DNA from: an uncultured delta proteobacterium
GTDB taxonomy: Bacteria; Desulfobacterota; Binatia; UBA9968
NCBI GenBank assembly: GCA_963755715.1
Contig: CAVWLW010000059.1
Coordinates: forward strand, 1 to 64,000
Reading direction: 5' to 3'
Length of the DNA: 64,000 nucleotides
Numbering within the stretch: position 1 is the first letter of the stretch; every line of letters begins with the position of its first letter. Both the position numbers and the translations under genes were made by a program. The notes under the pieces are model-generated. The model was not told the DNA's origin. It was given only the letters and a program-made list of their open reading frames with translations, and did no database searches. This document shows, piece after piece, positions 13,346 to 40,671 of this stretch.

Positions 13346-14731
13346 CTAAATCGGCGGTCTTTGCTCATACCATTTCATGTGCTGCTGATACGTGTAACCG
13401 GCGCGCAAAACAGACACCTCATCGAACGGCTTTCCCACCAGTTGCAACGCGATGGGGAGATTGTCTTCGGAGAATCCGCACGGCACGGACAACGTCGGCA
13501 ATCCGGTCAAATTAAACGGTCCGTGAAATTCCGGCACGACATGTTTAAACAACGTATCGATCGGGCCCACGTCTTTGATCAGCGGCGCCGGGCCCGCCTG
13601 GTTGGGGAGAGCCAAGCAATTCACCTTCTGAAAAACGTCGGCCAGCTCAGCGCGGCAGCGGCTGCGAATGCGCTGCGCTTGAATATAATCGGCAGACCCC
13701 GTCAGCAAGCCCAAGTAAATCCGCGCGCGTCGCTGCGCCGCGCCGGTGTTCAATATGGTGGCCGCGTCGCTTTTGTGCGCCGCCCAAAACTCGTTGTAGT
13801 AAATGACGGCGTTGGCAATGGTCGCCAAGTGGAGCGTTGGAATCTTAACTTCTTCCACGCGCGCGCCCAACGATCTAAGCTCGCTGATCGCTTCCTCCAC
13901 CCGTTTCAATACGATCGGCGCCGTGCGCGGCGCGCATTCGTCGATGTAAGCCTGCGGCACGCCGATCACCATACCTTTCACGTCGGCACGCAGCGCGCTC
14001 GCATAATCGGCCAGCGGCGCACTGCTCGACGTCGGATCTTTCGGATCGTGGCCGGCGATCGCGTTGAGCATATACGCCAGATCTTCGACGACCCGCGCCA
14101 TCGGCCCGCAGTGATCGAGCGACCAACTGAGCGGTGCAAGACCGTGACGGCTAACCCGCCCATAGGTCGCTTTCAAACCGGCGAGACCGCAGAATGCCGA
14201 CGGATTGCGAATCGAGCCCGCGGTATCTTCGCCGAGAGAACCCAGGCATAAACCGCCGGCCAACGCCGCGCCCGAGCCCGTGCTCGATCCGCCGGTGATA
14301 TGCTCCGTGTTCCACGGATTGCGTGGAATCGGCAACTCAGTATCCGGCAAGCTGCTCATGTGCAGTTTGCCCATCATGATCGCGCCCGCTTCGCGCAGCT
14401 TCCGCACTGCCGTCGCGTCGCCCACCCCTTTGGTAAATTGGCGAATGCGCGCCGGCGCGCCCTCGACGTCCAGTTGGTCCTTCACCGCGATGGGAATGCC
14501 ATGCATCGGCCCGCGCCAATTGCCTTTGGCAATCTCCGCCTCGGCCGCACTGGCTTCGCGCAGCGCGCTTTCCGCCATTAAATTGATATAAGCGTGCAGC
14601 TTGCCGTCGACGGCGTGAATGCGCTCGAGCACCGCCTTGGTCAAATCGACCGGCGAGAGTTGGCGGTCCTTAATAAGTTGCTGCGCTTCATGAATCGACA
14701 AGTAATAGAGCGGCTTTTCTGCGACGGCCAT
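13346..14731 (-). CDS. amidase signature family enzyme
   Basis: Lys-Ser-Ser triad motifs PIAVKD, GGSSTGS and DTAGSIR; AAAGGAG RBS before ATG 14731. Confidence 0.92.
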   Translation of the reverse strand: MAVAEKPLYYLSIHEAQQLIKDRQLSPVDLTKAVLERIHAVDGKLHAYINLMAESALREASAAEAEIAKGNWRGPMHGIPIAVKDQLDVEGAPARIRQFTKGVGDATAVRKLREAGAIMMGKLHMSSLPDTELPIPRNPWNTEHITGGSSTGSGAALAGGLCLGSLGEDTAGSIRNPSAFCGLAGLKATYGRVSRHGLAPLSWSLDHCGPMARVVEDLAYMLNAIAGHDPKDPTSSSAPLADYASALRADVKGMVIGVPQAYIDECAPRTAPIVLKRVEEAISELRSLGARVEEVKIPTLHLATIANAVIYYNEFWAAHKSDAATILNTGAAQRRARIYLGLLTGSADYIQAQRIRSRCRAELADVFQKVNCLALPNQAGPAPLIKDVGPIDTLFKHVVPEFHGPFNLTGLPTLSVPCGFSEDNLPIALQLVGKPFDEVSVLRAGYTYQQHMKWYEQRPPI

Positions 14732-14864
14732 GATTGGACTCCTTTCGATTTTCCAAATCGAGGAACGACGAAGAAAGATTTCTCCCTTAGGTCGAAATGA
14801 CACAACTGAGTCGCATTACCGGAGTCTTGTCATTTCGACCGAAGTGAGAGATCTTTCTTTGATC

Positions 14865-15058
14865 CTATTTTCCCGTCCACTCCGGGCGAAACACCGGACC
14901 CAAGTTCTTCCGCACCCAAATTCACGGAGTGCAACTGCTTTAAATTTTCCATGTACAAGCTCGATGATCTTTGAAAACTGCTCCAAGTCCCCTGCTTTCG
15001 GTTCCAGTCCTTCGCGTTTCAGCACCGCGATCAGATTTTCCTCGATCAATTTATCCAT
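14865..15058 (-). CDS. small GatC/AtzG-like protein (two apparent 1-bp insertions)
   Basis: RBS GGAGA. Correcting two indels gives MDKLIEENLIAVLKREGLEPKAGDLEQFSKIIELYMENLKQLHSVNLGAEELGPVFRPEWTGK*, directly upstream of the amidase. Confidence 0.5.
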
Positions 15059-15070
15059 GATCTTTTCTCC

Positions 15071-16870
15071 TTAGCGCGGCTGCGTGATCACATCCACCAC
15101 CGCCGGCTTGCCGCTTTCGACGATCGCTATGGCTTTGTCCAAGGTCGGCCCGAGCTGGTCCGGTTCGGTGATCGGGCCGAAAGCATCGACGTGAAGTCCG
15201 CGCGCGATCGCCGCGAGATCGGGCGCCGGCTCTTCGATGCGGATACCGATGCCTTTGTTCTCGACCGGGCGTTGACGCGCGCGCGCCATGCGTTCTTGAT
15301 GCTCCTCGTCGTTGTAATAGGAACGGTTGTTGAGCACGACCACGAGGAGCGGGATGTGGTACTTCGCCGCCGTCCAGAGCGCATTCGAAGTCATCAAAAA
15401 ATCACCGTCGCCGAGAATGCTCACGCACAGCCGGCCGCTTTCCCTGAAACCGAGCGCCGCGCCGATCGACGAAGGCAGTCCATAGCCGACCCCGCCGCCG
15501 CGCCCGCCGCCCATGCCGTGCGCCGGCTCGGTCACCTCGATCGCTTCGCGCCAGCGCCGTCCGTGCGACGACACCAGCGCCCAGGATTTTCCTTGTACCC
15601 GTTTGTTGATCTCCGTGAAAAAGCGCGCTTGCGAGATCGGTTTTTCGTTCCAAGTTTTTTCGATCCACTCTTGGCTCTTTTGCCGCGTCTCGCGATAGAT
15701 CGCTTCGATCTTCGTTCGTCGTTCCTGCACTTGCTTGGCGGAATCCTTGTTGGCGCTCAAGCGCTCGCGCACCTGCTCGAGCAACTGCGGCAATACGACC
15801 GCGGTATCGGCCGCCATCGGCACGTGCACGGGCAAGAGCCACATGTTATCGCTCACCCAGCTCTGGCGCTCGAGATCGAGCAACGTGATATGAATAACTT
15901 TGCAGCTCGGTGCAATGATCGGCGCGAAATTGCCGCGCTCGCGCACGGACGGCCCAAGCGGCACGCCCAAGCTCGGCACGTCGAGCGCCAACACGACGTC
16001 GGCGCCGCGCAAGGCGTCTTCACGCGCGTTGGTCAAATTCAATGGATGCGTGCTCGGAAATGCAAAGCGCCCGTCGGAGTCAATGACCGCCGCGCCCAGG
16101 GCTTCGGCCAGATCGAGCATCGGTGGCAGCGCTTTCGGGTTGCGTCCGACTTCGCCGGCGACGATCACCGGCCACTGGGCTTCGGCCAAAAGCCGCGACG
16201 CGTTGCGCAGCGATTCCGGGTTGGGCCCTGGCCCCGGCGGCGGACGGAAGAATTGCGCGTGCGGCACGACCATCGGTTTATCGATTTTCGCTTCCTGCAC
16301 GTCGCTATCGAGGCAGATGTAAACCGGGCCCTTCGGCTCGGTCATAGCAATCCGATAGGCCTTCAAGAAAGATTCGGCGACGGCGTCCACCGTATTCGGT
16401 TGGTCATCGAATTTCACATACTCACGCACCGCCAAACCCTGCACGTTCGCCGTGTGCACCCAATCCGTCGAGCGCCGGTTGGTGGTGTCCTGCGGCCCGC
16501 CGCCGCCGAGATTGAGTATCGGCGTGCGGTCGCACCAGGCGTTGAAGATCGCCATACTGGCGTGCTGCAAACCGACGATGTTGTGCAAGCCCGTCGCCAT
16601 GATCTCGCCGGTGGCGCGCGCGTAGCCGTTGGCAATCGCCACGGCGATCTCTTCGTGCGTGCACATGATCATCTCCGGCCCTTTGCCGGACTCGAAATTG
16701 ACCAGCGAATCGTGGAAACCGCGGTAACTCGCGCCGGGATTGAGCGCAATATATTTGATGCCCAACTCGCGCAACATCTCGGCCATCAGGTCGGAGCCGT
16801 ACTGGGCGTTGCTCCGGCGGCCGATCCCCGCCGCCCAGACTTCGGGAGTGCCTTTGCTTTGTTCTGCCAT
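15071..16870 (-). CDS. thiamine pyrophosphate-dependent enzyme (ALS/BFDC superfamily)
   Basis: NPGAS, CTHEE and GDGDFLM...NN TPP motifs. Confidence 0.92.
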   Translation of the reverse strand: MAEQSKGTPEVWAAGIGRRSNAQYGSDLMAEMLRELGIKYIALNPGASYRGFHDSLVNFESGKGPEMIMCTHEEIAVAIANGYARATGEIMATGLHNIVGLQHASMAIFNAWCDRTPILNLGGGGPQDTTNRRSTDWVHTANVQGLAVREYVKFDDQPNTVDAVAESFLKAYRIAMTEPKGPVYICLDSDVQEAKIDKPMVVPHAQFFRPPPGPGPNPESLRNASRLLAEAQWPVIVAGEVGRNPKALPPMLDLAEALGAAVIDSDGRFAFPSTHPLNLTNAREDALRGADVVLALDVPSLGVPLGPSVRERGNFAPIIAPSCKVIHITLLDLERQSWVSDNMWLLPVHVPMAADTAVVLPQLLEQVRERLSANKDSAKQVQERRTKIEAIYRETRQKSQEWIEKTWNEKPISQARFFTEINKRVQGKSWALVSSHGRRWREAIEVTEPAHGMGGGRGGGVGYGLPSSIGAALGFRESGRLCVSILGDGDFLMTSNALWTAAKYHIPLLVVVLNNRSYYNDEEHQERMARARQRPVENKGIGIRIEEPAPDLAAIARGLHVDAFGPITEPDQLGPTLDKAIAIVESGKPAVVDVITQPR

Positions 16871-16954
16871 CTTTCCTCCGTGTGAAAATATCGTCCAGCA
16901 AACTTCGATCGCAGCGCCGTAAGTTATCAGTCCTTGCGCCGTTGCTTCAATAGG

Positions 16955-17503
16955 CTATTTCAATCCTGCGCCGCTTAGCCGCAGCTGTTCGTTCACCAAA
17001 TCAATTGCTCCCTCCGCATCGGCCCGGTGCTCGCCAGGACGCGCGCCGCCGCTCGGGTGATGTGGGATTTCCACCAAGGGCAGCTTGCTCAAGCCAAAAA
17101 ACTTGGCCTCGGTGCGCGCCAGTTCCATAAAAATCGACTGGCAGAGCGTCACCGTTGGCTTTCCTTTCTTTTGCAACTCGATGGCGTCGTGGACACTCCA
17201 CGACGTACAAGACCCTCAAGCGCCCAAACCGGTAATCACCGCGTCGCAACGGTTTAAGATTTCCTCCATGATCGGTTTCGGCGCGCCTTGCATATGTGTC
17301 GGCTTGGTCTTGAACAGAACTTCTTTGGTGTGAAATTTTTCTCCAATCAGTTGCGCCAACTCTTGGAACATCGCCGTCGAGTTGGCCTGACCGTTGTCGA
17401 TGATGCCGATAACCCGCCCTTCAAGCGTATCGAGTCCCGGCACCAGCGGCCGGTCTTTGGGATTTAACGTCACCCTCGGATCGAGGAATTTGATCGTCGC
17501 CAT
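16955..17503 (-). CDS. UGSC-type selenoprotein (182 aa; Sec at codon 96, TGA at 17216-17218)
   Basis: ORFs 17216..17503 and 16955..17176 are in the same frame. Read-through gives VITGLGA-U-GSCTSWSVHDAIELQKKGKPTV, followed by a SECIS-like hairpin. Confidence 0.88.
17186..17204 (-). promoter_or_regulatory. putative bacterial SECIS hairpin
   Basis: mRNA GUCGUGGA-GUG-UCCACGAC: perfect 8-bp stem with a G-containing loop, starting 11 nt after UGA. Confidence 0.8.
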
Positions 17504-17795: not shown

Positions 17796-18764
17796 ATGAA
17801 ACGCTTTTCTCCATCGACCCGCCACGGTTGGGCATTCCTCGCTGCGGCACTCTCTTTTATCGAACCGAGTATCTCCGGCGCGCAGGCGACATCTCTACGC
17901 GTCGGCACCAATTCACCGGCAAGCACCGAAGCCGTGCTGTTCAGCATCGCTAAGGACGCCGGTATTCTGAAACAGCATCAACTGGACGCCGAAGTGATCT
18001 ACATCGCCGGCGGCACGCTGTCGATGCAAGCGCTGGTCGGTCGCAGTCTCGATTTCATGTGCACGGGCGGGACTCCGTTCATCTACGCTTACCTGGAAGG
18101 TGTCCAGGGGAAGATCATCGGCGGAGTCAATAATCGCCTGCCCTACGGCTTCGTCTCGCTCGCCAATATCAAGACGCCGGCGCAGCTCAAAGGCAAAAGA
18201 ATCGGCATCAGCCGTTTCGGCAGCACCGACGACTTCGCGGTCAAACTAGCTCTGGCGCAATTTGGCTTGAACCCGAAAACCGACGTCAGCATCACCCAAA
18301 TCGGCGGCGCCGCGACTCGGCTCACGGCGCTCCAAGCCGGCAGCATCGATGCCGCCGTTCTCACCCTCGGTCTCGTGCAAATCGCGCAGAAAAGCAATCT
18401 TAACTTATTGTTGGACTTCATCGAAAAGGACATCGAGTACCAACAGGTCGCCATTATCGCGCGCGATGATTTGCTCAAAGCGCGCGCCGACGTCGTGCGC
18501 CGTTTCATGAAAGCGTATACGGAAGGGATTCGCTATTACAAAAGTCAAAAAGAAGTCGCCGTTCGAAAAACCATGGAGAAATTGCGTACCAACGACCGTG
18601 CGATCGGGGAATTCGACTACAATCAGCGCGTCCGCGCGCTCCCCGACGACGCCAAGCCGACGATCAAAGGGATGCAACTCGCCCTCGACGACATAGCCAA
18701 GGACAATCCGAAAGCGAAAAATCTTACGATCTCGCAGCTGGTGGATTTGAGTTTCATTCCGTAA
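17796..18764 (+). CDS. ABC-type substrate-binding protein (NMT1/SsuA-like)
   Basis: Signal peptide and QLKGKRIGISRFGS motif. Confidence 0.9.
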   Translation: MKRFSPSTRHGWAFLAAALSFIEPSISGAQATSLRVGTNSPASTEAVLFSIAKDAGILKQHQLDAEVIYIAGGTLSMQALVGRSLDFMCTGGTPFIYAYLEGVQGKIIGGVNNRLPYGFVSLANIKTPAQLKGKRIGISRFGSTDDFAVKLALAQFGLNPKTDVSITQIGGAATRLTALQAGSIDAAVLTLGLVQIAQKSNLNLLLDFIEKDIEYQQVAIIARDDLLKARADVVRRFMKAYTEGIRYYKSQKEVAVRKTMEKLRTNDRAIGEFDYNQRVRALPDDAKPTIKGMQLALDDIAKDNPKAKNLTISQLVDLSFIP

Positions 18765-29766: not shown

Positions 29767-30844
29767 CTACAGACCGTAAAGCTTGCGTGGATTATCCGAC
29801 AGCATCTTCTCGACCATGCGCGGCGATAAATCCTTTCGCTCGCGAAACTCCGCCACCATATCTTCCTGGCGCGACGGATCGCCGTGCGGATAGTCGGAGC
29901 CGAGCACGAAAGAATCCTCGCCGATGATCCCGGCAATACCGCTCAGGTCTTCATCGGGTTCGGCGGTGACGAACACTCGGCCGGTTTTAAAATATTCGAT
30001 CGGGTCTTTGGCTTTTTTCTGCCTGGCGTTGTCGCGGCGCACTTGTTTAATTAAGAATGGAATCCAAGCCGCGCCCGCTTCCAAGAATGCGAAGCGCAGA
30101 TTGGGGATCTTCTCGAACGCCGCCGAGCTCATGATGCTGTTGAAGCCCATGACCACCGGCAGGATCGCGCTGTAGAAATTGGTCGAAGCGTCGAAGATAT
30201 CCGTCAGCGCCGGGCAACCCCAACCGAGATGCACGCAGATCGGCAGATTCAAATCAGCCGCCGCTTGATAGAACGGAAACAGGCTTTCATCGCCGAGCAG
30301 CTTGTCCCACGCCATCCCCTGCAGCATTACCGCGGCGGCGCCGATCTTCGCATGCGCGCTTGATCTCTTTGATCGATTCCTCGATATCGCGGATCGGCAC
30401 CAGCGCCGCGAAGCGAATCCGGTTTTTCGAAGCCGTCGCGCATTCGCCGAGAAAACTATTGTAGGCGCGCAGCAGCGCCGCTTCTAAGCGCAAGTCTTCT
30501 GAAGTGACCGTCAAGAAGAGGCTTGGAAACACGACCTGGGTGTCGATCTTCACCTTGTCCATATCGCGAATCCGCGCCGCGACATCGGTCAATTCCTGCG
30601 CGCCGATGCTCTCGCGTTTGAGCGAAGCGGCTTCCATGATCGTCGGCGTGCGAAAAATCGTGCCGCCTTTGCCCATGAGTTTCGGGTAAGTCTCGCCGTC
30701 GATCAGCCAGACCGCGTTGTATTTTCCATACACCGTGTCCGTGGCGAAACGCACCGGCAGCGGCCGGCGCGGCCGGAACTCCTTGTCCAACCGATCGAAC
30801 ATCGCCTCGGATTCTTCCACGTGAGCATCGGCATCGATGATCAT
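29767..30844 (-). CDS. amidohydrolase_2 family protein, frameshifted near 30350
   Basis: N-half (IIDADAH) in 30287..30844 and C-half (CVHLG, LEAG, GSDYPH) in 29767..30327. Confidence 0.85.
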
Positions 30845-31101: not shown

Positions 31102-32098
31102 CTAATTTCCATACAACTTTTTAATGAAGCCGCTGTCCTCGATTTCTTTCAAGATCGACGGATCGATGAAGTCGCCGGGGTTGAGATTTTTCATTTGCGG
31201 GCGGGTCTTGGCGAGTTGATCGATGATGGTCTGAATGCCTTCGCGATCCGGATACGGAACTCTCCGGATCAGTCTCTGGGACATCTCCTCGTACGACGTT
31301 TGCACCAGGGACAGATCGTCGAGCCGCGTATACTTTTTCAAAACGTTTAGCGCAACGTCTTTGTTCGTTTTGAACACATAGATGCCCTCCAGATAGGCTT
31401 TCATGAAGCGAATGGTGACGTCCCGATTGGCGCGAATGAAACTCTTTCGCAGCCCCGAAACCGTGCATCGTGTAAGGTACGCCGAGCTGGCTTAAGTCCG
31501 CGAGCACGGAAGCGCCCGCCCGCATGGCAACGGTGGCAAATGGCTCCGAGAGAATCACCGCATCCACGGCCTTGTTTTGGAGCGCCATAACCTCTTCCTG
31601 CTCGCCGCCCACCTGGATAATGGCGACGTCTTTGTCGGGAACCAGACCCCAGCGACCGAGCGCATAGCGGATAGAAAAATCGCTGGCGCCGCCCAGCCGG
31701 GAAATTCCCACCTTCTTGCCTTTTAACTGCTCGGGCTTTTTCAGTTCCGGGCTCGCGATGACCTTGAACACAAAAGTGCTGAGCGTCGCCGTCAGGCCGA
31801 CGAAATCGGCGCCAGTCACGTTCGCGTTGATATTGGCCACACCACCACTCGTAATAAATTGAATCTCGCCCGCTAACGCCGCCTGAATCGCCCTTGAACT
31901 CACAGGGACAAAAAGCACGTCAACGTCCAACCCATACTTACGGGGCAGATCGAGCTCCTTCATGATGTAGACCGGATCGAATTGGATGCCGATGGAGGTG
32001 TAGGCGGCGCGGACCTTAGGCAGGTTTTGCCCCTGCGCGGCGTCGGCGAGAGCTACAATCAAAGCGAAACCAATCACCAATCTCATTACTCTCGGCAT
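31102..32098 (-). CDS. ABC-type substrate-binding protein (NMT1-like), frameshifted near 31450
   Basis: LKGKKVGISRLGG in 31121..32125; C-terminus (MKAYLEG...FIDPSIL) in 31102..31404. Confidence 0.85.
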
Positions 32099-32132
32099 GG
32101 TTGTCTCCTGTGACCTGTCACGCAATCACTTA

Positions 32133-33113
32133 TCACTGGCGGTACAGCCCGTCGATATAGCCGGACTTGTCCAGCTCGTCAATGAACCGGGTATCCACAT
32201 ATTCCTTCGCGTTGGCGGTTTTTGCCGCCGGCACTCGCTTCGCCAGATCTTCGAAGATCGTCTTGAAACCCTCGAGCGACGGATACGGTTTAACCTGGAT
32301 AAAACTTTTCAGAAGTTGGTAGGTGTCTTCCAATTCCTTTTCGTCTTTGATTTGCATGCGCTTAGAAAGCGCTCGCTTGGCGAGGGCCGGATTTGTACGC
32401 ATCAGATGAATTCCTTCGATCACGGACTTGACGGCTCGTCGCACGATGTCGGGATTTTTTGCAATAAACTTTTGCGTCGTGTTCAGACCCGTTTGCTGAA
32501 CCGGCAGATCCATCTCTTGCATGTTGACCAAAACATGCATGCCGGAAGCTACGGCTTTGAGATAGTAAGGCGGCTGAATGATCGCGCCGTCGATGATTCT
32601 GCCTGTGGATAAGGAAGCCAGGAGAACCGGCACGTCGCCGACCTGGACGTAGGAAACGTCTTTATCCGGATCGAGACCGAGTCTCCCGACCAGGAGCCGG
32701 GACATCGAATCGGTGACCGTGCCGAAGCGCGTGATGCCGAGCCGTTTTCCTTTGAGATCGGCGACGGTGCGAATCTCGGGGCGGACCACCAGCCGATAGA
32801 GCGGCTTGTTGAGAAAACTCGCGACCATCACCACGTCGACACCCTGCAATCGCGCCGACGAGAGCAGACTGCCGGAGTAGACGCACATGTCGATTTCTCC
32901 GGCGATCATCGCCGTCTGCCCAAGCGTCGTCTGTAAATAGAGTATCTGCGGGTCGATGCCGTTTTTTTGGAACAGCTTCCCTTCGTCAGTCACCCAGAGC
33001 ATTGCGTTACTGACCGTCGCGCCTGAGTAGCCGATGCGGATCTTGTCGGCGGCGACACTGGGTTGGAATGAAAGGGAGAAAATTCCAAGGAGCAGAAGTG
33101 GTATGAATATCAT
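32133..33113 (-). CDS. ABC-type substrate-binding protein (NMT1-like)
   Basis: Signal peptide; DKIRIGY and DLKGKRLGITRFG motifs. Confidence 0.9.
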   Translation of the reverse strand: MIFIPLLLLGIFSLSFQPSVAADKIRIGYSGATVSNAMLWVTDEGKLFQKNGIDPQILYLQTTLGQTAMIAGEIDMCVYSGSLLSSARLQGVDVVMVASFLNKPLYRLVVRPEIRTVADLKGKRLGITRFGTVTDSMSRLLVGRLGLDPDKDVSYVQVGDVPVLLASLSTGRIIDGAIIQPPYYLKAVASGMHVLVNMQEMDLPVQQTGLNTTQKFIAKNPDIVRRAVKSVIEGIHLMRTNPALAKRALSKRMQIKDEKELEDTYQLLKSFIQVKPYPSLEGFKTIFEDLAKRVPAAKTANAKEYVDTRFIDELDKSGYIDGLYRQ

Positions 33114-33297: not shown

Positions 33298-34350
33298 TTA
33301 ATCCCGAATGACTTTCGTGACACTCCGCGTCGACCCGCCCTCGGGCGTGCTCTGGCCCCAGACGTGAATGTACTGCGACTGCGAGCCGTCGCCGCCGGCG
33401 ACGATGACGAGTATGTCCTCCGGCCTGTCGGTTACGGGAATGACGCTGTCGCGCGTCAGCTTGAGATCGGAGCGGCGCTTGACGCGCTGCTCGAAGGTCT
33501 CGTCGGGAAGATCTTTCATCCGATAGGCGGCGCGCTCCCAGATGAATTTCTGAACGTCCTTCTTGCTGAAACCATCGCCGGCGATGATCTTGGCATGCTC
33601 CGGGCAGATCACCATGATCGCTTCCGGCCCCGAGGGTCCGTCCATTTTTTGCGCGAAATTGATCAGTATGCCTTCAGCCTTCGAGCTGTCCAAATCCGAC
33701 GCGCGGATCGACGCGTCCGCGCTGATTGCGGTGACCGTGCTCTGCTCCGCTTTGAATCCGCGTTCGACGTGGAGCGGCTCCCACGGGCTCCCCTCCTCAT
33801 TTTCGCCGACGCAGATGGAATATTTCCCGGGCCAACCTAAAGTCGCTTTGCAGGTCGTGCCGGGATAGGAGCCGCCGATATTGCGTTTCACCAGTTGCAC
33901 GAAGCGACCGATGGTCGCATTGGCGCGCCATCCCTCGCCCAAGGCATTGGGGCCGCCGTTGATGTCTAGTTTTTTACGGATCGGGCCATTAATGATGATC
34001 ATCACCGCCGGCCCGCCGGTGGTCGCTTGCAGCGCATAAAGATTAAGCTTCGGATCCGTAATGGCTTCCACGGCCGCGATCAGCACCGGCATGTACTCCG
34101 GCTTGCACCCCGCCATGACGCCGTTGATGGCGATCTTCTCCACCGTCGCCTGTGCCCAGCGCGGCGGCACCGCGCCGATCACTTCGTCGGGCTTGCGCTT
34201 GGCCGCCGCGAGCATCTGCGCCACCCGTTCTTCCGTCGGTGGAATGATCGGCAACCCATCGCCCCAGCCTTTCTCTTCGAAAAAGGCCTGCGCTGCCCAG
34301 ATGTCATCGGGGATTTCGAATCGCTCCGCTTGAAGTGCTGTAGTTGCCAT
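33298..34350 (-). CDS. uncharacterised protein with GDGLPIIPPT / MAGC motifs (UGSC-associated)
   Basis: GWGDGLPIIPPTEERV, TVEKIAINGVMAGCKPEY, RANATIGR, ENEEGSPW and LHVERGF; GGAG RBS before ATG 34350. Confidence 0.85.
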   Translation of the reverse strand: MATTALQAERFEIPDDIWAAQAFFEEKGWGDGLPIIPPTEERVAQMLAAAKRKPDEVIGAVPPRWAQATVEKIAINGVMAGCKPEYMPVLIAAVEAITDPKLNLYALQATTGGPAVMIIINGPIRKKLDINGGPNALGEGWRANATIGRFVQLVKRNIGGSYPGTTCKATLGWPGKYSICVGENEEGSPWEPLHVERGFKAEQSTVTAISADASIRASDLDSSKAEGILINFAQKMDGPSGPEAIMVICPEHAKIIAGDGFSKKDVQKFIWERAAYRMKDLPDETFEQRVKRRSDLKLTRDSVIPVTDRPEDILVIVAGGDGSQSQYIHVWGQSTPEGGSTRSVTKVIRD

Positions 34351-34668
34351 TGCTGTACTTCTCCAATCAGATGCGTTCAAAGGTGATTACACCCCGCTTA
34401 CTTGAACGCGCCACAAGAATTACTTCTTCGCCCTCCTTGGAGGGAGAGGAAAAAGGTGAGGGTAGTTAACGGATACCCTGACGTCGCCCGCAAGGGACGC
34501 GACTTGATGTCATTCTGAGCCGAAGGCGAAGAATCTCGTCTTCGCAACGAGCTGAAAATGCGAGATGCTTCGCGTCGCTCAGCATGACATCCATATAATC
34601 GTGCGCACTGCGACATTCGGCGGTGAAGAGTGTAACCGACGTGCCGCTAAATCGTTGCAAACTAATTT

Positions 34669-35220
34669 TCAAGCAACAGCGGACTTCTTTTGTCGCGGAT
34701 CGAGCAGAATCTCGATCAGCTTACTGAACGCCGCGTCGGCTTTTTTGTTCACTTCTTCGATCTTCACCGTTCCGATCGGATGCTGCACGACCAGTACGGG
34801 ATGATCGGGCGCACCGAATGCCTCTTTCTCAGATTTCGCCAACGCGTCGAAGGCATTGGTAATCAACGTGATCGCAAAGCGGCCGCGCTTTTGAATCTCG
34901 ATTGAGTCGTGGACACTCCACGACGTGCACGACCCTCAATCGCCAAGCCCGCTGATAACGAAATCAGTCTGCGCCGCCAGTTCGTCGAGATATTCTTTGG
35001 GCGCGCCCTGCTGGGCCGTGAGCTTCCGGCGGCTAATCACTTTGGCGACGCCGTATTTTTCCTTGAGCTGTTCAGCGAAGCGCTCGGCCAGCTTGTCCAT
35101 GTTGGGCTTGCTATTATCGAGCAGGCCCAACACCTTGCCGCGCAGGTCCGCGAACTGCGGCAAGCTCGCGACTTTCGCCGCCGAGGATTGCGCCTTTCCT
35201 TCCGGACTGAGAACAATCAT
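34669..35220 (-). CDS. UGSC-type selenoprotein (183 aa; Sec at codon 95, TGA at 34936-34938)
   Basis: GGAGG RBS before ATG 35220. ORFs 34936.. and 34669..34866 are in frame; read-through gives VISGLGD-U-GSCTSWSVHDSIEIQKRGRFAITL...QHPIG. Confidence 0.9.
34906..34924 (-). promoter_or_regulatory. putative bacterial SECIS hairpin
   Basis: Identical 19-mer to 17186..17204, again 11 nt after UGA. Confidence 0.8.
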
Positions 35221-35240
35221 CTCATGACCTCCTGAAATTC

Positions 35241-35302
35241 GTAGGGGCAACCCCCTGTGGTTGCCCGTTCGACCCAGGGCAGGCACAGGGGCCTGCCCCT
35301 AC
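35241..35302. repeat. GTAG-type REP doublet (related single at 13275-13301)
   Basis: GTAGGGGCAACC...GGTTGCCC / GGGCAGGC...GCCTGCCCCTAC. Confidence 0.8.
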
Positions 35303-35350
35303 GCTGATAGATTGAAAAATCCAAATTGAACTACGACCGAACAACATATT

Positions 35351-36445
35351 CTATAATCCGTAAAACGCCTTGGGGTTGTCGTAGAGAATTTTTTGCACGG
35401 CCGATTGTGGAATATCACCCTTGTCCGCCCGAGCTTGAAGTTCCTTGCGGAATTCGAGCTCCATCGAAGGATCGCGGTGCGTGTAGTCCGAGCCCACCAT
35501 CAAGTTGTTTTCGCCGACAGTTTTAATGATATACGGAAGATCTTCGTCGACCTGGCAAGTAATATAGATGCGATTCTCCTCGAACACATTGACTGGCACC
35601 TCGATGAGCGGGACTCCGAGCACGCTGGTGCTCTCGCGTCCCTGCTGGCGCAATTGCTGGCGACGCAGATCGTAGGCAACGAACGGCGCCCACATCGAAC
35701 CTGCCTCGATGCAGCCGAACCGAAGCTTTGGAAACTTTGCCGGAATTCTATGAAGAATAAGCCCGAGCACGCCGTTGATCGCCGCGCCCTTCGTGCGCAT
35801 GAATTGGCCGTGGGAGAATTCCCGCGCCGGTGAGAAATCCGGCACGCCGGAGCCGGTGTGAATGCAGATCGGCAGATCGAGCTTCTCCGCTTCCGCGTAC
35901 AGTGGCTCGAAGTAAGGATCGGCCGGATACTTACCCGCTTCGCGATCGCCTTTTTTCAAGATGCCACAGGCGCCATGGTCTTTTGACCAGCGGATCTCCG
36001 CCAGAGACTCGTCCATATTCTGCAGCGGCGGCATGCAAACCCAGCGCAGTCGTCCACCCGATTGGCCGCAACGGTCGCCCAACCAGCGGTTATAACTCCG
36101 GCGCATTGCCGCGTTGATCTCAGGCTTTTCCGTCGCCTCCATCAAGAAAAGCGTGGGATAAATCACCTGGGTGTCCGTGCCGAGCTCATCCATGTGCTTG
36201 AGCCGTTTTTTCACATCGAGCAGCTCGCGCGTCTCCACGGTCGTGCCCGAATCTTTATCGCTGCGAATGAAACGAATCTGGCGCTTGCCATCGATCACCC
36301 AGTAGCGCGCCGGCGGTAATTTAGGATCCGGATTGGACGGGTAAGCGGTCGTTGGCTTGTACGACGAATCGCCGCCAGCCATGTATTCCCACGTAGCATC
36401 CGTTTCATCTATGTGTGTATCGGCGTCAATAATTCCCACGATCAT
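35351..36445 (-). CDS. amidohydrolase_2 family protein
   Basis: IIDADTH, YPTLFL, CIHTG, IEAG and GSDYTH motifs. Confidence 0.92.
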   Translation of the reverse strand: MIVGIIDADTHIDETDATWEYMAGGDSSYKPTTAYPSNPDPKLPPARYWVIDGKRQIRFIRSDKDSGTTVETRELLDVKKRLKHMDELGTDTQVIYPTLFLMEATEKPEINAAMRRSYNRWLGDRCGQSGGRLRWVCMPPLQNMDESLAEIRWSKDHGACGILKKGDREAGKYPADPYFEPLYAEAEKLDLPICIHTGSGVPDFSPAREFSHGQFMRTKGAAINGVLGLILHRIPAKFPKLRFGCIEAGSMWAPFVAYDLRRQQLRQQGRESTSVLGVPLIEVPVNVFEENRIYITCQVDEDLPYIIKTVGENNLMVGSDYTHRDPSMELEFRKELQARADKGDIPQSAVQKILYDNPKAFYGL

Positions 36446-36809: not shown

Positions 36810-37853
36810 ATGATGAACGGCGTATCGGTGATCGACGCCGACGGCCATGTTTTGGAAACCGATGCGGAGCTGGAACAATACTTCGAAGGCTCCTACAAAG
36901 GCCACAAACGCTCCGGTGTATTTTCCATCTTCCCCTCTCTCGACGGCTGGCCGCGCGGTTTCGTCCGCGGCTTGGAAAAAATTAACCGCACTGGGGCGGA
37001 TAACTGGATCCAATTCATCGAAGGATCGAAGATCGATGCCGCCGTGCTCTACCCCACCGCCGGCCTTTCTCTCGGCTTGATCCAGGATCCCGATTGGGCC
37101 TGCGTCGTCGCCCGGACGTATAATAATTGGCTGCATGACCGTTACTGCAAAGTCGATCCTCGTTTAAAAGGTGTGGCGCTCTTGCCCGTACACGATCCCC
37201 AGGAAGCGGCGATGGAACTGCGCCATGCCGTCAAAGAGCAAGGCATGGTCGCCGGCCTTTTGCCCGCCGTCACGATGCTCAACAAAGGCTACGGCCACCG
37301 GGACTTTCATCCGATCTACAAAGAAGCGCAGGAGCTAAACGTGCCGCTGACGGTGCATGGCGCCGTCAGTCGCGGCTTGGGCTTCGATTTTCTGCAGACC
37401 ATGTCGATGATCCACACCCTCGAGCATCCAATCGCGCAGATGATCCAACTCACCAGCATCGTCCTCGACGGTGTCTTCGATTTGTTCCCGAAATTGCGCA
37501 TCGGCTTCTTGGAAGCCGGCGCCGGCTGGATTCCCTACATGATGGATCGGCTGGACGAGAAGTTTCACATCGACCGCAAGCGCAAACATTTTCCGCTGAG
37601 CAAGCGGCCGAGCGAGTATTTCAAGAGCGGCAACATCTACGTCACCTGCGAGACCGACGAGAAAATTCTCGACGTCGTCGTCCGCGAAATGGGTGAAGAT
37701 TATCTCATGTACCCGACGGACTTTCCCCACGAACGCCAAGCCGGAGAGTTCGCCGTCGATATTCCGGAATTTTGGGAACGAAAAGATTTGGCCGAAAGGG
37801 TCAAGCGAAAAATTCTCAGTGAGAATGCGAAGCGATTTTATAACATGGCGTAG
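36810..37853 (+). CDS. amidohydrolase_2 family protein
   Basis: IDADGH, YNNW, TVHG, LEAG and PTDFPH motifs; GGAGG RBS. Confidence 0.92.
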   Translation: MMNGVSVIDADGHVLETDAELEQYFEGSYKGHKRSGVFSIFPSLDGWPRGFVRGLEKINRTGADNWIQFIEGSKIDAAVLYPTAGLSLGLIQDPDWACVVARTYNNWLHDRYCKVDPRLKGVALLPVHDPQEAAMELRHAVKEQGMVAGLLPAVTMLNKGYGHRDFHPIYKEAQELNVPLTVHGAVSRGLGFDFLQTMSMIHTLEHPIAQMIQLTSIVLDGVFDLFPKLRIGFLEAGAGWIPYMMDRLDEKFHIDRKRKHFPLSKRPSEYFKSGNIYVTCETDEKILDVVVREMGEDYLMYPTDFPHERQAGEFAVDIPEFWERKDLAERVKRKILSENAKRFYNMA

Positions 37854-38157: not shown

Positions 38158-39150
38158 TCAGAATCTCTTGAGCACCCCGCTCTCCTCCAAACGCCGCGAC
38201 AGACTCACATCGATGAACTGCTCCGGCTTTGCCGCCGCCGCTTTAGGATTCGATGCCGCTAAGATATCCAGGATCGTTTTCACACCGCTAGCGGTCGGCC
38301 GCATATTGGGGCTGTGCACTTCTTTATTGTCCGCATAAGTATTCTCTAGAATCTTTCGATCGCTGACTTTTGTATACTTGGCCATAATCCGCATCGCGCG
38401 CTCTTTGTCCGTTCTGAAAATGTGCACGCCTTCGGCGACCGAGTTGAACACCCGTTGTGCCTTGTCCGTCGAATCGCGCACGAACGATCGACGGGTGGCC
38501 AAGACGAACGATGGATACTCCACGCCGGCGCCGTTCCAGATGCGTTTAAAGCCGAGAGCTTCGGCCCGATAAGTCGCCGGCGGCGCGAGCATGGCCGCTT
38601 GAACCCGCCCGGCTTGCATCGCCGCTACCGACTCGGGATAGCCGCCGGACTGTATCAATGGCACGTCCTTCACCGCCTCCATGTTGTACTGAGCAAAACA
38701 CACCTTCGCCATATACGCGGTGCTCGAAGCCAAGCGGGTCACGGCCACAGTCTTGCCTTTGAGATCTTCGACCCTGGCGATCCCTGGGACGACATAAAGA
38801 CTGATCGGCGTCGTATTGGAAATAAACCCAGCGAGGGTAAGATCCGCGCCGCCAAGAATACCGCTCACGATCGGATCGGCGCCGCCATAAATGAAATCGA
38901 TTTCTCCCGCGATCAGCGCGCTGACCGCCACCGAAGAGCCGCCGATGTAGACGAGATCGGCGTCGATCTGATTTTTCTGATACAGTCGCTCATCAGTGGC
39001 AATCCATACGGGCGTAAAGATACCGCTGATGGAACTATAAGCCGCGCGGATTTTGTTTTGCGCTGGAGCGGAACTGTGAAGACTCAGGATAGAAAGCGTG
39101 ACCAGCAGGAATCGGCCGGCCACCGCTATGAAATCAACGGAGAACCCCAT
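38158..39150 (-). CDS. ABC-type substrate-binding protein (NMT1-like)
   Basis: Signal peptide; EDLKGKTVAVTR motif. Confidence 0.88.
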   Translation of the reverse strand: MGFSVDFIAVAGRFLLVTLSILSLHSSAPAQNKIRAAYSSISGIFTPVWIATDERLYQKNQIDADLVYIGGSSVAVSALIAGEIDFIYGGADPIVSGILGGADLTLAGFISNTTPISLYVVPGIARVEDLKGKTVAVTRLASSTAYMAKVCFAQYNMEAVKDVPLIQSGGYPESVAAMQAGRVQAAMLAPPATYRAEALGFKRIWNGAGVEYPSFVLATRRSFVRDSTDKAQRVFNSVAEGVHIFRTDKERAMRIMAKYTKVSDRKILENTYADNKEVHSPNMRPTASGVKTILDILAASNPKAAAAKPEQFIDVSLSRRLEESGVLKRF

Positions 39151-39211: not shown

Positions 39212-39306
39212 TCAAGCCCCTCTTTTGACAAACGATCGATCGCAAGGCGCTTGACGTAACGCTTGATTGCTCGCTAAATTCCCAGAGCGGCATGAAGGAG
39301 ACTAAT

Positions 39307-40671
39307 ATGACCGGAATCATCGACGCGGACACTCACATTGCAGAATCGGAGGGCATGTGGCGACTATTCGACCAGGATATGTATCGTCGCCGGCCGGTCA
39401 TGGTCGCCGCGCCGGATGACACGCTGTACCGGGATTTCAATGTTCTGTGGCTCATCGACGGCAACATCTTTCCCAAAGCCGCAGGCAAAGGCGGATTTCG
39501 TATTATCACGCCGACAGCTTCGAAACGCGAAGCCGGAAGAACAGACATCAGCCTCGGTTGCCGTGAAATTACCGACGTCGATGCGCGCTTGGCCGACATG
39601 GACAAGGCTGGAGTCGCCGTCCAGGTGATTTATCCGACGTTGTTTTTAATTCACGTCACCGACGACGTTGAATTGCAGGTTGCGCTATGCGCCGCTTATA
39701 ACCAATACCTGGCGCAGGTGTTTGCCAAGTCACGCGCGCGGCTTCGTTGGGTTGCCGTCCTGCCGCTGCACAGCGTTGATGAATCCATCAAGCAGATGCA
39801 CGAGGCCAAACTGAACGGCGCCGTAGGAATATTTTTCAGCGGCATCGTCGGCGCTCTCACTCTGAACAATCCGCACTTTTTTCCGATCTACGCCGAAGCC
39901 GAAAAGCTCGGCCTGCCGGTCTGTGTCCACACCGGTCAGAGTTGCCGCCATTTACTGGATTTCTTCGATCTCGAATTGAACGGAACTTTCGCGGCGTCGC
40001 ATCTGCCGCCGCTCATCGGTTTTCGCGATCTCGTGGCCAGCGAGATTCCCGAAAAATTTCCCGGCTTGAAATTCGGCTTTCTCGAGGTCTCCGCCAGTTG
40101 GGTGCCGTTCTTGTATCATCACTTAAAGCGCTCGGCGCGCCCGCGCCCGTCCTTTCCCACCGCGCGCTGGAAACATGCGTCGTGCAAAGACCTGTTCCGC
40201 GATTATCGAATCTACATTGCCTGTGAAGCCGACGAAGACATCCCCTACCTGGCAGAATACGTCGGCGAGGACCACCTGATGATCGGCTCGGACTATGGCC
40301 ACAACGATCCCGCAGAAGAAAAGGCCCTGGTCGAGACGATGAAAGCGCGAGAGGATCTTTCAGCTGCTCTGTTAGAAAAAATTCTGGTGCAAAATCCTAA
40401 GCATTACTTGGGCGCGCCTATTCGATCTAGTGATCTGGATCCGAAGTTCGGTGAATATCTCATACGCCTCTTCTCCGTCATACCGGCGAAAGCCGGTATC
40501 CAGACGTATTTGAATTTCCTGGATTCCGGGTCGCGGCCCCGCTTGCCCGGAATGACGATCGACGTTCGACTTGTTAAAGAACATCAGTGTTCTGTCCCAG
40601 AAGCTGACTTTGTAATTCCCGGATCGTTCCGTCCGAAAAATCTCCCCTTCCCCTCTTGGAAAGAGGGGTAA
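39307..40671 (+). CDS. amidohydrolase_2 family protein; homologous part ends near 40430, ORF then runs on through repeats
   Basis: AAGGAG RBS; IDADTH...GSDYGHND...KILVQNPK. The tail translates REP DNA (SVIPAKAGIQ). Confidence 0.85.
   Translation: MTGIIDADTHIAESEGMWRLFDQDMYRRRPVMVAAPDDTLYRDFNVLWLIDGNIFPKAAGKGGFRIITPTASKREAGRTDISLGCREITDVDARLADMDKAGVAVQVIYPTLFLIHVTDDVELQVALCAAYNQYLAQVFAKSRARLRWVAVLPLHSVDESIKQMHEAKLNGAVGIFFSGIVGALTLNNPHFFPIYAEAEKLGLPVCVHTGQSCRHLLDFFDLELNGTFAASHLPPLIGFRDLVASEIPEKFPGLKFGFLEVSASWVPFLYHHLKRSARPRPSFPTARWKHASCKDLFRDYRIYIACEADEDIPYLAEYVGEDHLMIGSDYGHNDPAEEKALVETMKAREDLSAALLEKILVQNPKHYLGAPIRSSDLDPKFGEYLIRLFSVIPAKAGIQTYLNFLDSGSRPRLPGMTIDVRLVKEHQCSVPEADFVIPGSFRPKNLPFPSWKEG

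What the first reader, a model, noticed from the sequence alone, without database searches (positions are those of the whole stretch)
33298..36445. Candidate selenium-dependent two-protein redox system: UGSC selenoprotein plus GDGLP/MAGC partner in a catabolic gene run
Seen: a co-oriented run of amidohydrolase, UxxC selenoprotein (34669-35220), uncharacterised 350-aa protein (33298-34350, conserved-looking GVMAGCKPEY Cys), two SBPs and another amidohydrolase. From memory, UGSC-type domains occur next to or fused with this GDGLP-type domain, and I know of no function shown for the pair. Inference: a two-subunit Sec-dependent reductase or lyase acting on a substrate bound by the SBPs and processed by the amidohydrolases. 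The second UGSC gene (16955-17503) has no adjacent partner and may share this one.
Basis: partly seen in the sequence, partly recalled or inferred. Interest (0 to 1): 0.85.

Follow-up and report, generated by a model that had tools for sequence, protein, structure and literature searches.

The report
UGSC selenoprotein with obligate partner enzyme
A small selenium-containing protein of a known but unexplained family sits beside a large unnamed protein with which it is almost always paired or fused in other bacteria, so the two probably form one selenium-dependent enzyme of unknown substrate.

Summary
Gene 34669-35220(-) is a UGSC-family selenoprotein (Pfam PF24696, in-frame TGA at 34936-34938, SECIS-like hairpin; SelB and tRNA-Sec in the genome). 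Gene 33298-34350(-) belongs to a very large family with no Pfam, NCBIfam or PDB relative.

The two form a conserved module. In 151 genomes of the phylum, the same 18 carry both. 50 of 56 UGSC matches lie within 500 nt of a partner match on the same strand. 31 of 51 UGSC domains examined are fused to the partner, two of them in this genome.

The partner is not related to GrdE/PrdA. Its confident model has no solved structural neighbour.

Best reading: a two-part selenoenzyme, probably a reductase fed by thiol/selenol redox modules.

The fusion was reported in 2008 as "UGSC/Unknown_1"; no function is in print. This scan found the module before in at least 71 other genomes.

The parts
34669..35220 (-). 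UGSC-family selenoprotein gene: 183 codons plus a TGA stop at 34669-34671
   Evidence: PF24696 at 155.5 bits and NF041046 at 130.2 bits. Translation. AlphaFold2 model with pLDDT 94 shows alternating strands and helices.
34936..34938 (-). In-frame TGA read as selenocysteine (U95, motif D-U-G-S-C)
   Evidence: 45 of 51 UGSC domains in related loci have a TGA at this site. The genome has SelB at 416 bits and tRNA-Sec at 76.7 bits.
34906..34924 (-). SECIS-like hairpin (8-bp stem, 3-nt loop) that starts 11 nt after the UGA
   Evidence: Fold: -18.5 kcal/mol for the 56-nt stretch, z -1.7. The same hairpin follows the UGA of the second UGSC gene (z -2.5). The stem also encodes the conserved SWSVHD peptide, so it is not independent of the protein.
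34351..34668 (-). 318-nt spacer between the two genes, holding short dispersed repeats
   Evidence: up to 9 genome copies of one part of the spacer. Depth spike at 34522-34600 in RNA-library contigs.
33298..34350 (-). Partner gene: 350 aa of an unnamed family (D31-G-L-P, MAGC82, C180, E183, R149)
   Evidence: No Pfam match even at E up to 10, no NCBIfam match and no PDB sequence match. 5638 cluster representatives at E<=0.001. Model pLDDT 96 and no Foldseek PDB match at E<=0.001.
16955..17503 (-). Second, unpaired UGSC selenoprotein gene (U96 at 17216-17218)
   Evidence: The nearest partner match on the contig is 15.8 kb away. A TPP-enzyme gene follows it 85 nt downstream.
35351..36445 (-). 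Context only: PF04909 amidohydrolase gene upstream
   Evidence: Adjacency is at chance level for this genome.
31121..33113 (-). Context only: two NMT1/SsuA-like solute-binding protein genes downstream
   Evidence: Enriched beside the module within this genome (4 of 6 sites against a 0.159 background) but not found beside it in the other genomes.

Best explanation
The two genes encode the two halves of one selenoenzyme.

The small half (UGSC) is an alpha/beta domain. It carries selenocysteine at the start of a helix in a U-x-x-C motif. It is a distant relative of the selenocysteine-bearing C-terminal half of the GrdB/PrdB 'selenoprotein B' subunits of glycine/betaine and D-proline reductases.

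The large half (350 aa) is a separate, uncharacterised domain. It has an invariant polar core (D31, T39, N76, N144, R149, E183, E185, W190) that most likely binds the substrate.

Inferred cycle:
1. The selenolate acts on the substrate held by the partner.
2. The neighbouring Cys of U-x-x-C, or a partner Cys, closes a selenenyl-sulfide.
3. A thioredoxin-reductase-like or ferredoxin:thioredoxin-reductase-like module re-reduces it.

Shown here: the gene is a selenoprotein gene, the two halves are tightly coupled or fused, and the UGSC domain is homologous to the GrdB-type Sec domain. Inferred: physical contact in the split form, reductase chemistry and the electron donor. The substrate is unknown.
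For: 1. Selenoprotein status. Family scores are above cut-off, the TGA sits in the U-x-x-C motif, a hairpin follows it, and SelB and tRNA-Sec are in the genome.

2. Coupling.
- In this genome 3 of 4 UGSC genes have the partner beside them, two as single fused reading frames.
- In a sample of 151 genomes of the phylum, the partner is found in 18 and UGSC in the same 18.
- 50 of 56 UGSC matches lie within 500 nt and on the same strand as a partner match: 39 with UGSC 5' and 11 with UGSC 3'. 53 of 56 lie within 2 kb.
- One of the two matches with no partner on their contig does have one.
- 31 of 51 UGSC domains in 45 stretches are fused to the partner by 4-41 aa linkers.
- Of 148 top partner-family representatives, 68 are 385 aa or longer, and 45 of those 68 carry PF24696.
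- Both domain orders occur.

3. Redox context.
- Other partner-family members carry a Redoxin/AhpC-TSA CxxC domain in place of UGSC (P0250, P0272).
- Others carry a ferredoxin:thioredoxin reductase catalytic domain (P0238; P0260 is UGSC-partner-FeThRed_B).
- Pyridine-nucleotide disulfide reductases are among the commonest operon-like neighbours, 4 of 103.

4. GrdB/PrdB relation.
- hhalign of 51 UGSC domains against 4 PF07355 selenoproteins of this genome gives probability 96% and E 4.5e-9, with Sec aligned on Sec.
- With greedy settings the alignment runs end to end, UGSC 4-181 on GrdB-like 205-434.
- The reversed control and 10 column-shuffled controls give 0.8% or less.

5. Sec is nearly obligate: 45 Sec, 1 Cys and 5 neither among 51 domains. 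The ocean survey counted 255 Sec against 21 Cys forms (PMC2398784, Table 2, passage read). In PrdB the U151C change abolished activity (PMC11229817, passages read).
Against: - No experiment and no structure of the pair. Complex prediction could not be run, so contact and the geometry of U95 relative to the partner's pocket are unknown.
- The hhalign target was built from only 4 sequences of this one genome, defined by Pfam and not by biochemistry.
- Pfam's own GRDB model does not hit UGSC.
- The partner shows no relation to GrdE/PrdA (hhalign 0.1%) or to GrdB-like proteins (1.8%). No pyruvoyl site can therefore be claimed.
- Five of 51 UGSC domains have neither Sec nor Cys, so some copies cannot do selenol chemistry.
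- A CxxC thioredoxin-fold domain can replace UGSC. That fits a plain electron-carrier role as well as a catalytic one.
- A 318-nt repeat-bearing spacer separates the two window genes. Co-transcription was not shown.
- Neighbour genes give no consistent substrate clue.
Confidence: 0.7

Rival explanations
1. UGSC is only a dedicated thioredoxin-like electron carrier. The partner is the whole enzyme. It uses its own Cys82/Cys180 pair as nucleophile and resolving thiol, as in methionine sulfoxide reductase or arsenate reductase, and UGSC merely reduces that disulfide.
For: - Both Cys are kept in 27 of 49 partner domains, including the window's.
- UGSC can be replaced by a Redoxin CxxC domain or joined to an FTR-like domain.
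- Four of the 5 UGSC-like domains without Sec or Cys sit on partners that keep Cys82.
- The 2008 paper proposed a thioredoxin-like fold (PMC2398784, passage read).
Against: - Cys82 is lost in 12 and Cys180 in 18 of 49 partner domains. 11 of the 12 without Cys82 keep Sec in UGSC, so in those there is no partner disulfide of this kind to reduce.
- Sec is nearly obligate (45:1), unlike typical thioredoxin-type carriers. In the ocean survey the Trx-like 1 family counted 321 Sec against 7,880 Cys forms (PMC2398784, Table 2).
- The predicted secondary-structure order is an alternating strand-helix pattern, not the thioredoxin order. The nearest detectable relative is the catalytic GrdB-type domain.
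Confidence: 0.2
2. One reading: the module acts on the compound imported through the adjacent binding proteins and processed by the adjacent amidohydrolases, as one catabolic pathway.
For: - The genes are co-oriented in the window.
- Within this genome a binding-protein gene of the same family lies within 350 nt of 4 of 6 module sites, against a 0.159 background (post hoc binomial P about 0.007).
- In other genomes the module often sits among organic-acid transporters (TctC/TctA, DctM, MFS), GntR/FCD regulators, CoA ligases and CoA transferases.
Against: - The binding-protein and amidohydrolase clusters beside the module were found only in this genome among 45 stretches.
- No neighbour family exceeds 4 of 103 operon-like ORFs.
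- The genome has about 447 and about 145 loci of the two families.
- Amidohydrolase adjacency is 1 of 6 sites against 0.055 (P 0.29).
- No permease or ATPase genes were identified among the genes examined beside these binding-protein genes.
Confidence: 0.12
3. The pair is not an enzyme. It is a selenium or sulfur trafficking, storage or sensing couple.
For: No substrate is known. Some copies lack all redox residues in both domains (L036, second copy).
Against: - Up to 13-14 matches to each family per genome (G034) and varied catabolic neighbourhoods fit substrate-diversified enzymes better than a housekeeping carrier.
- The invariant polar Arg/Glu/Asn core looks like a small-molecule site.
Confidence: 0.05
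4. The TGA is a true stop. The 'UGSC gene' is two fragments or a pseudogene that lies beside an unrelated gene by chance.
For: Under table 11 the frame is split into 116-aa and 65-aa ORFs.
Against: - The Pfam match runs across the TGA (residues 3-172).
- 45 of 51 relatives have a TGA at the same column.
- The genome has the Sec machinery.
- Co-occurrence is 18 of 18 genomes.
Confidence: 0.01

Closest known systems
UGSC-containing selenoprotein family (Pfam PF24696, NCBIfam NF041046) and the 'UGSC/Unknown_1' fusion of Zhang and Gladyshev 2008 (PMC2398784)
   Same: The window protein scores above both family cut-offs and has the U-G-S-C motif. Fusion of UGSC to a conserved unknown domain with conserved Cys is what that paper reports (passages read).
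   Different: That paper's Figure S1A is in a closed supplement, so I could not confirm that Unknown_1 is this partner domain. [quoted passage not shown] Here the partner family has 5638 cluster representatives and is strictly coupled to UGSC in a non-marine phylum sample.
Selenoprotein B subunits of the Stickland reductases: GrdB/GrdF/GrdH with GrdE/GrdG/GrdI, and PrdB with PrdA (Pfam PF07355 and PF09338)
   Same: - Sec sits in a U-x-x-[CS] motif after a beta strand and before a helix, followed by an E-x-x-G-I-P-x-V segment.
- Profile homology places Sec on Sec.
- The selenoprotein is always encoded beside a larger second subunit (for this genome's Grd-like pairs; for UGSC).
- Sec is strongly required.
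   Different: - UGSC corresponds only to the C-terminal half of GrdB-like proteins and is not hit by PF07355.
- The partner is not related to GrdE/PrdA (hhalign 0.1%) and has no PF09338 match, so there is no evidence for a pyruvoyl group.
- I did not look for GrdA or GrdC/D genes beside the module.
- The carriers found here and in the protein searches are soil and aquatic lineages, not amino-acid fermenters.
Thioredoxin-type modules fused to their target enzymes, and the ferredoxin:thioredoxin reductase relay (Pfam PF02943)
   Same: A small dithiol/selenol-thiol module is encoded beside, or fused to, the protein it serves. FTR-like and thioredoxin-reductase-like proteins are fused to or adjacent to some members.
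   Different: The predicted UGSC secondary structure is a five-strand alternating beta/alpha pattern, not the thioredoxin order. Sec is in the small module, and the partner's cysteines are dispensable in many members.

Membership tests
UGSC family (seleno)protein (PF24696 / NF041046) | Score above the curated family cut-offs | tested here: met
   PF24696: 155.5 bits against 25. NF041046: 130.2 bits against 125. The second copy (16955-17503) passes Pfam at 138.3 bits but is below the NCBIfam cut-off (112.3 against 125).
UGSC family (seleno)protein (PF24696 / NF041046) | U-G-S-C motif with in-frame UGA (or Cys) at the first position | tested here: met
   GLGD-U-GSC with TGA at 34936-34938. 45 of 51 relatives have a TGA at this site.
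Bacterial selenoprotein gene in general | SECIS stem-loop just downstream of the UGA | tested here: inconclusive
   An 8-bp hairpin starts 11 nt after the UGA in both window copies, but z is only -1.7 and -2.5 and the stem encodes a conserved peptide. Rfam found nothing in the window.
Bacterial selenoprotein gene in general | Sec insertion machinery in the genome | tested here: met
   SelB TIGR00475 at 416.1 bits (cut-off 242.25). tRNA-Sec RF01852 at 76.7 bits (gathering score 47). SelA and SelD were not searched.
GrdB/PrdB selenoprotein B (PF07355) | Match to the family model | tested here: not met
   No PF07355 match for either UGSC protein at E<=0.01. That Pfam model ends just before the Sec.
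GrdB/PrdB selenoprotein B (PF07355) | Homologous Sec-bearing domain with Sec at the equivalent position | tested here: met
   hhalign 96%, E 4.5e-9, Sec on Sec. Controls 0.8% or less. End-to-end alignment with greedy settings. This is remote homology, not family membership.
Stickland reductase protein B / Prd complex | Second subunit of the GrdE/PrdA family (PF09338) that self-cleaves at Cys to give a pyruvoyl group | tested here: not met
   The partner has no Pfam match at E up to 10. hhalign against this genome's five PF09338 proteins gives 0.1%. Whether the G-C82 bond is cleaved cannot be tested here, and Cys82 is absent in 12 of 49 domains.
Thioredoxin-fold redox protein | Thioredoxin fold with the redox motif at the first helix | tested here: inconclusive
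   The model has alternating strand-helix units, E30-35 to H154-172, with U95 between strand 3 and helix 3. That is not the thioredoxin order. No three-dimensional comparison of this model was run.
Partner family (unnamed; possibly 'Unknown_1' of PMC2398784) | Any curated family or solved structure | tested here: not met
   No Pfam or NCBIfam match. No PDB sequence match for P0002. The profile search gives only weak hits to HisF or HisF-derived TIM-barrel proteins at E>=0.012. Best Foldseek PDB hit has E 2.7e-3 and TM 0.19.

The most novel reading that the evidence does not exclude
UGSC plus its partner is a new branch of the Stickland-type selenoreductases that works outside amino-acid fermenters. 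A PrdB-like selenol attacks a carbon next to a carboxylate on a substrate held by a non-homologous, fold-orphan subunit. It cleaves a C-N, C-O or C-S bond reductively and is recycled through a selenenyl-sulfide by thioredoxin-reductase-like or ferredoxin-dependent modules. The many paralogues per genome would be substrate-specific versions used in organic-acid catabolism. One of the most abundant selenoproteins of surface waters would then have a chemistry.
Probability: 0.3. Interest if true: 0.85.

Novelty: new variant of a known kind. Interest (0 to 1): 0.68.

Why it matters
UGSC has been listed among the most abundant selenoprotein families of ocean and freshwater metagenomes since 2005-2008. 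A 2026 review still lists it among selenoproteins identified by bioinformatics whose biological functions remain largely uncharacterised (PMC2398784 and PMC13188914, passages read).

Three results make the question testable at the bench:
- UGSC has a fixed partner of a very large family that no curated library names.
- The partner's confident model has no solved structural neighbour.
- The Sec domain is related to the catalytic selenoprotein B of the glycine and proline reductases.

The experiment that follows is to co-express the pair, or take a natural fusion, supply a thioredoxin system and screen substrates. The work also shows that gene callers cut these genes at the UGA: many database entries begin just after, or end just before, the Sec codon.

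Tried and rejected
Complex prediction of the window's pair
- Nothing can be said about an interface or about how close U95 lies to Cys82.
- I did not run a three-dimensional comparison of the UGSC model.

Searches for a relative of the partner
- Pfam at E up to 10 and NCBIfam found nothing.
- PDB by sequence with P0002 and with a natural Cys-type fusion found nothing. The family profile gave only weak hits to HisF or HisF-derived TIM-barrel proteins at E>=0.012.
- Foldseek against the PDB gave class I fumarate hydratase and cyanuric acid hydrolase at TM 0.16-0.24, which is not significant.
- Two protein-atlas look-ups returned only the family's own unnamed clusters, with automatic 'thioredoxin' names.
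- hhalign of the partner against GrdE-like and GrdB-like proteins, and of UGSC against GrdE-like proteins, gave 0.1%, 1.8% and 2.0%.
- The first hhalign of UGSC against the Pfam-delimited GrdB part gave only 2.6%, because that part stops before the Sec.

Expression and co-transcription
- 23 runs were listed.
- Contigs of four soil RNA libraries from four studies lie on both genes at 90% identity or more. Examples: X5, 176-211 nt with 0-1 differences in the partner gene; X10, 465 nt across the UGA.
- These are contigs of libraries that may hold DNA. None spans the spacer, so neither transcription nor co-transcription is shown.

Other dead ends
- Rfam found nothing in the window.
- Pairing of the orphan UGSC with a particular partner by nearest-neighbour similarity gave no signal.
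- The search for a conserved neighbour gene found none above 4 of 103 ORFs.
Full report
**1. What is in the window**

On the minus strand lie, in order of transcription:
- a PF04909 amidohydrolase gene (35351-36445);
- a 183-codon gene interrupted by one TGA (34669-35220);
- a 318-nt spacer;
- a 350-codon gene (33298-34350);
- two NMT1/SsuA-like solute-binding protein genes (32133-33113 and 31121-32125).

Further downstream, an amidohydrolase-like stretch at 29767-30844 is split into two ORFs in different frames. tblastn with the window's amidohydrolases finds a match about 2.46 kb from the module, which places it in this stretch.

Read with TGA as Sec, the interrupted gene gives GLGD-U-GSCTSWSVHD, with U95 at 34936-34938. 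Its real stop is also a TGA. It scores 155.5 bits on Pfam PF24696 (cut-off 25) and 130.2 bits on NCBIfam NF041046 (cut-off 125).

An 8-bp hairpin starts 11 nt after the UGA. The same hairpin follows the UGA of the second copy at 16955-17503. Its folding energy is only modestly better than shuffles (z -1.7 and -2.5), and it overlaps a conserved peptide, so I count it as consistent and not as proof.

The genome holds SelB (416 bits) and tRNA-Sec (76.7 bits).

**2. The partner**

The 350-aa protein has no Pfam match even at E up to 10, no NCBIfam match and no PDB sequence match. It is nevertheless a member of a very large family:
- 7232 of 8000 scored candidates reach E<=0.001 in the 90% clustered collection. 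The named ones among the 120 listed are all called hypothetical.
- 5638 representatives of 50% clusters reach E<=0.001.

With 148 aligned sequences, AlphaFold2 gives pLDDT 96 and pTM 0.93. Foldseek against the PDB finds nothing at E<=0.001. The best hit is a class I fumarate hydratase chain at E 2.7e-3 and TM 0.19.

Residues kept in 90% or more of the family include D31-G-L-P, P38-T39, N76, G81, C82, P84, G122-P123, N144, R149, C180, E183, W190 and G319.

**3. The two belong together**

In this genome:
- There are four UGSC matches and four full-length partner matches, plus two partner fragments on one further contig.
- On two other contigs the two domains are one reading frame, UGSC first.
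- One of those fusions has the motif H-U-S-T-C, has MAGA instead of MAGC, and is followed by a thioredoxin-reductase-like gene.

In a sample of 151 genomes of the phylum:
- The partner profile finds 18 genomes, and PF24696 finds the same 18.
- Of 56 UGSC matches, 50 lie within 500 nt of a partner match on the same strand: 39 with UGSC upstream and 11 with UGSC downstream. 53 lie within 2 kb.
- Two have no partner match on their contig, and one, the window's second copy, is 15.8 kb away.
- One of those two does have a fused partner when its contig is searched directly.

In 45 stretches (40 fetched loci, three loci of this genome and two window parts):
- There are 51 UGSC domains.
- 31 are fused to the partner through linkers of 4-41 residues.
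- 1 is in the same frame behind a TGA.
- 19 are separate genes.

Among the 148 best partner-family representatives, 68 are 385 aa or longer, and 45 of those 68 carry PF24696. Many of these entries begin just after the Sec codon or end just before it, so they are gene calls cut at the UGA. Both domain orders occur as fusions.

**4. Clues to chemistry**

(a) Sec is nearly obligate. Of the 51 domains, 45 have the TGA, 1 has Cys and 5 have neither. The ocean survey counted 255 Sec against 21 Cys forms (PMC2398784, Table 2, passage read).

(b) Other partner-family members carry different redox modules:
- a Redoxin/AhpC-TSA domain with CxxC (P0250, P0272);
- a ferredoxin:thioredoxin reductase catalytic domain (P0238);
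- UGSC-partner-FeThRed_B in one chain (P0260).

(c) Pyridine-nucleotide disulfide reductases are among the commonest operon-like neighbours, 4 of 103.

(d) The partner's cysteines are not universal. Counting the window's protein once, both C82 and C180 are kept in 27 of 49 domains. C82 is Ala or Gly in 12 and C180 is lost in 18. Eleven of the 12 without C82 still have Sec in their UGSC domain. So the selenol does not generally depend on the MAGC cysteine. What is universal in the partner is a polar core of Asp, Thr, Asn, Arg, Glu and Trp.

**5. Relation to the Stickland reductases**

This genome has PF07355 (GrdB/PrdB family) genes. At least four are intact, and each lies just downstream of a PF09338 (GrdE/PrdA family) gene. 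Reading on past the end of the Pfam match shows an in-frame TGA at once: ILT[SA]T-U-GT[SCG], then a helix and ELEKAGIPxV. This looks like UGSC's GD-U-GSC ... LExxGIPxV.

The profile comparison gave these results:
- hhalign of the 51 UGSC domains against the four full-length GrdB-like proteins: probability 96% and E 4.5e-9 over 73 columns, with Sec on Sec.
- Greedy settings: UGSC 4-181 aligned on GrdB-like 205-434.
- The reversed target and ten column-shuffled targets: 0.8% or less.
- Partner against GrdE-like proteins: 0.1%. Partner against GrdB-like proteins: 1.8%.

The UGSC model (pLDDT 94) is a five-strand alternating beta/alpha domain with U95 between strand 3 and helix 3. That is not the thioredoxin order suggested in 2008.

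In D-proline reductase, the Sec of PrdB attacks the alpha-carbon of the substrate bound on PrdA, and the U151C variant was inactive (PMC11229817, passages read). By analogy, and as inference only, I propose three steps:
1. The UGSC selenol acts on a substrate held by the partner.
2. A selenenyl-sulfide forms with the second Cys of the motif.
3. Thioredoxin-reductase-like or FTR-like proteins re-reduce it.

**6. The neighbourhood**

- Among 423 neighbouring ORFs of the 45 stretches, the binding-protein cluster (8 members) and the amidohydrolase cluster (7 members) occur only in this genome.
- Among 103 operon-like neighbours, no family exceeds 4. TctC, Pyr_redox_2 and NMT1 have 4 each. TctA, DctM, AMP-binding, molybdenum hydroxylase, MFS and GntR/FCD have 3 each.
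- This genome has about 447 loci like the window's binding proteins and about 145 like its amidohydrolases.
- A binding-protein locus lies within 350 nt of 4 of 6 module sites, against 0.159 for random 1.6-kb intervals. The post hoc binomial P is about 0.007, and clustering of paralogues is not modelled.
- An amidohydrolase does so at 1 of 6 sites against 0.055 (P 0.29).

The general theme in other genomes is uptake and activation of organic acids. This is compatible with a catabolic role but names no substrate.

**7. The second UGSC gene**

It is followed after 85 nt by a TPP-dependent enzyme gene and then an amidase gene. The genome also has an unpaired partner gene on another contig, between an SDR-type epimerase gene and binding-protein genes. 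So two free UGSC genes face two free partner genes. Nearest-neighbour similarity does not tell which pairs with which.

**8. What is known**

UGSC is a catalogued selenoprotein family of unknown function (PMC1976440, PMC2398784, PMC9312934 and PMC13188914; passages read). The 2008 paper reports a fusion of UGSC with a conserved domain, 'Unknown_1', that carries conserved Cys. Its Figure S1A is in a supplement I could not see, so identity with this partner is likely but unverified.

Two full-text searches ('UGSC' with 'selenoprotein', 9 papers; 'UGSC' as a whole word, 17 papers) turned up no functional study. In the passages I read there was no mention of a relation to GrdB/PrdB.

Earlier notes of this scan describe the same module in at least 71 other genomes, and some name GrdB as the closest known family. 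I reached the same points from my own calls before reading them.

**9. Limits**

The UGSC model was not compared in three dimensions.
- The GrdB-like target alignment has four sequences from one genome.
- RNA-library contigs of four soil studies lie on both genes, but they show neither transcription nor a joint transcript.
- The co-occurrence sample covers one phylum. Kin are not independent.

**10. Verdict**

This is a further instance of a widespread, already noticed but uncharacterised two-part selenoprotein module. It is best seen as a variant of the GrdB/PrdB-type selenoreductases with a non-homologous, fold-orphan second subunit.

Noticed in passing
whole genome (G000); in the window e.g. 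31121-33113, 38158-39150, 17796-18764, 35351-36445, 36810-37853, 39292-40671: Extreme expansion of two families. tblastn with the window's proteins finds about 447 NMT1/SsuA-like solute-binding protein loci (373 of them 750 nt or longer) and about 145 PF04909 amidohydrolase loci in 7.4 Mb. No transporter genes were identified among the genes examined beside the binding-protein genes in the window.
   Followed up: partly
G000 C57:47178-49583, C56:1523-3936, C64:97590-100093, C25:20346-22691 (loci L051-L054, L058-L062): Four intact GrdE-like (PF09338) plus GrdB-like (PF07355) gene pairs. Each GrdB-like gene has an in-frame TGA directly after the Pfam match (U-G-T-S/C/G). These look like protein-B-type selenoproteins. 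I did not look for GrdA or GrdC/D. A fifth pair on C14 looks broken into pieces.
   Followed up: partly
window 13346-17503 (-): The unpaired UGSC gene is followed after 85 nt by a 599-aa TPP-dependent enzyme gene and then an amidase gene. A similar TPP enzyme gene lies near a UGSC-partner pair in one other genome (L013).
   Followed up: partly
window 29767-30844 (-): An amidohydrolase-like gene is split into two overlapping ORFs in different frames (29767-30327 and 30287-30844). This is a frameshift or an assembly error.
   Followed up: no
window 34351-34668 and 35221-35350: Short dispersed repeats flank the UGSC gene, with up to 9 and 12 copies in the genome by blastn-short. They cause a depth spike and foreign joints at 34522-34600 in RNA-library contigs.
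   Followed up: partly
L008 616-3522 (G000 C64): A fused UGSC-partner gene with motif H-U-S-T-C and with MAGA in place of MAGC. A thioredoxin-reductase-like gene with a CASC motif follows directly.
   Followed up: partly
G034 and G124 (loci L038-L050): Two genomes of the phylum give 13-14 and 9-11 matches to the two families, partly in tandem arrays. One reading frame in L036 (G126) holds UGSC-partner-UGSC-partner, and the second unit has no Sec or Cys in either domain.
   Followed up: partly
G000 C50:1743-2302 (L009, L010): Two short partner-family fragments, one with a TGA inside. Probably a decayed copy near a contig end.
   Followed up: no
protein ids P0126, P0127, P0157, P0181, P0241, P0245: Partner-family proteins of about 710-740 aa with two to four matched stretches, apparently holding two tandem partner domains and no UGSC domain. 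The two that were scanned individually have no Pfam match.
   Followed up: no
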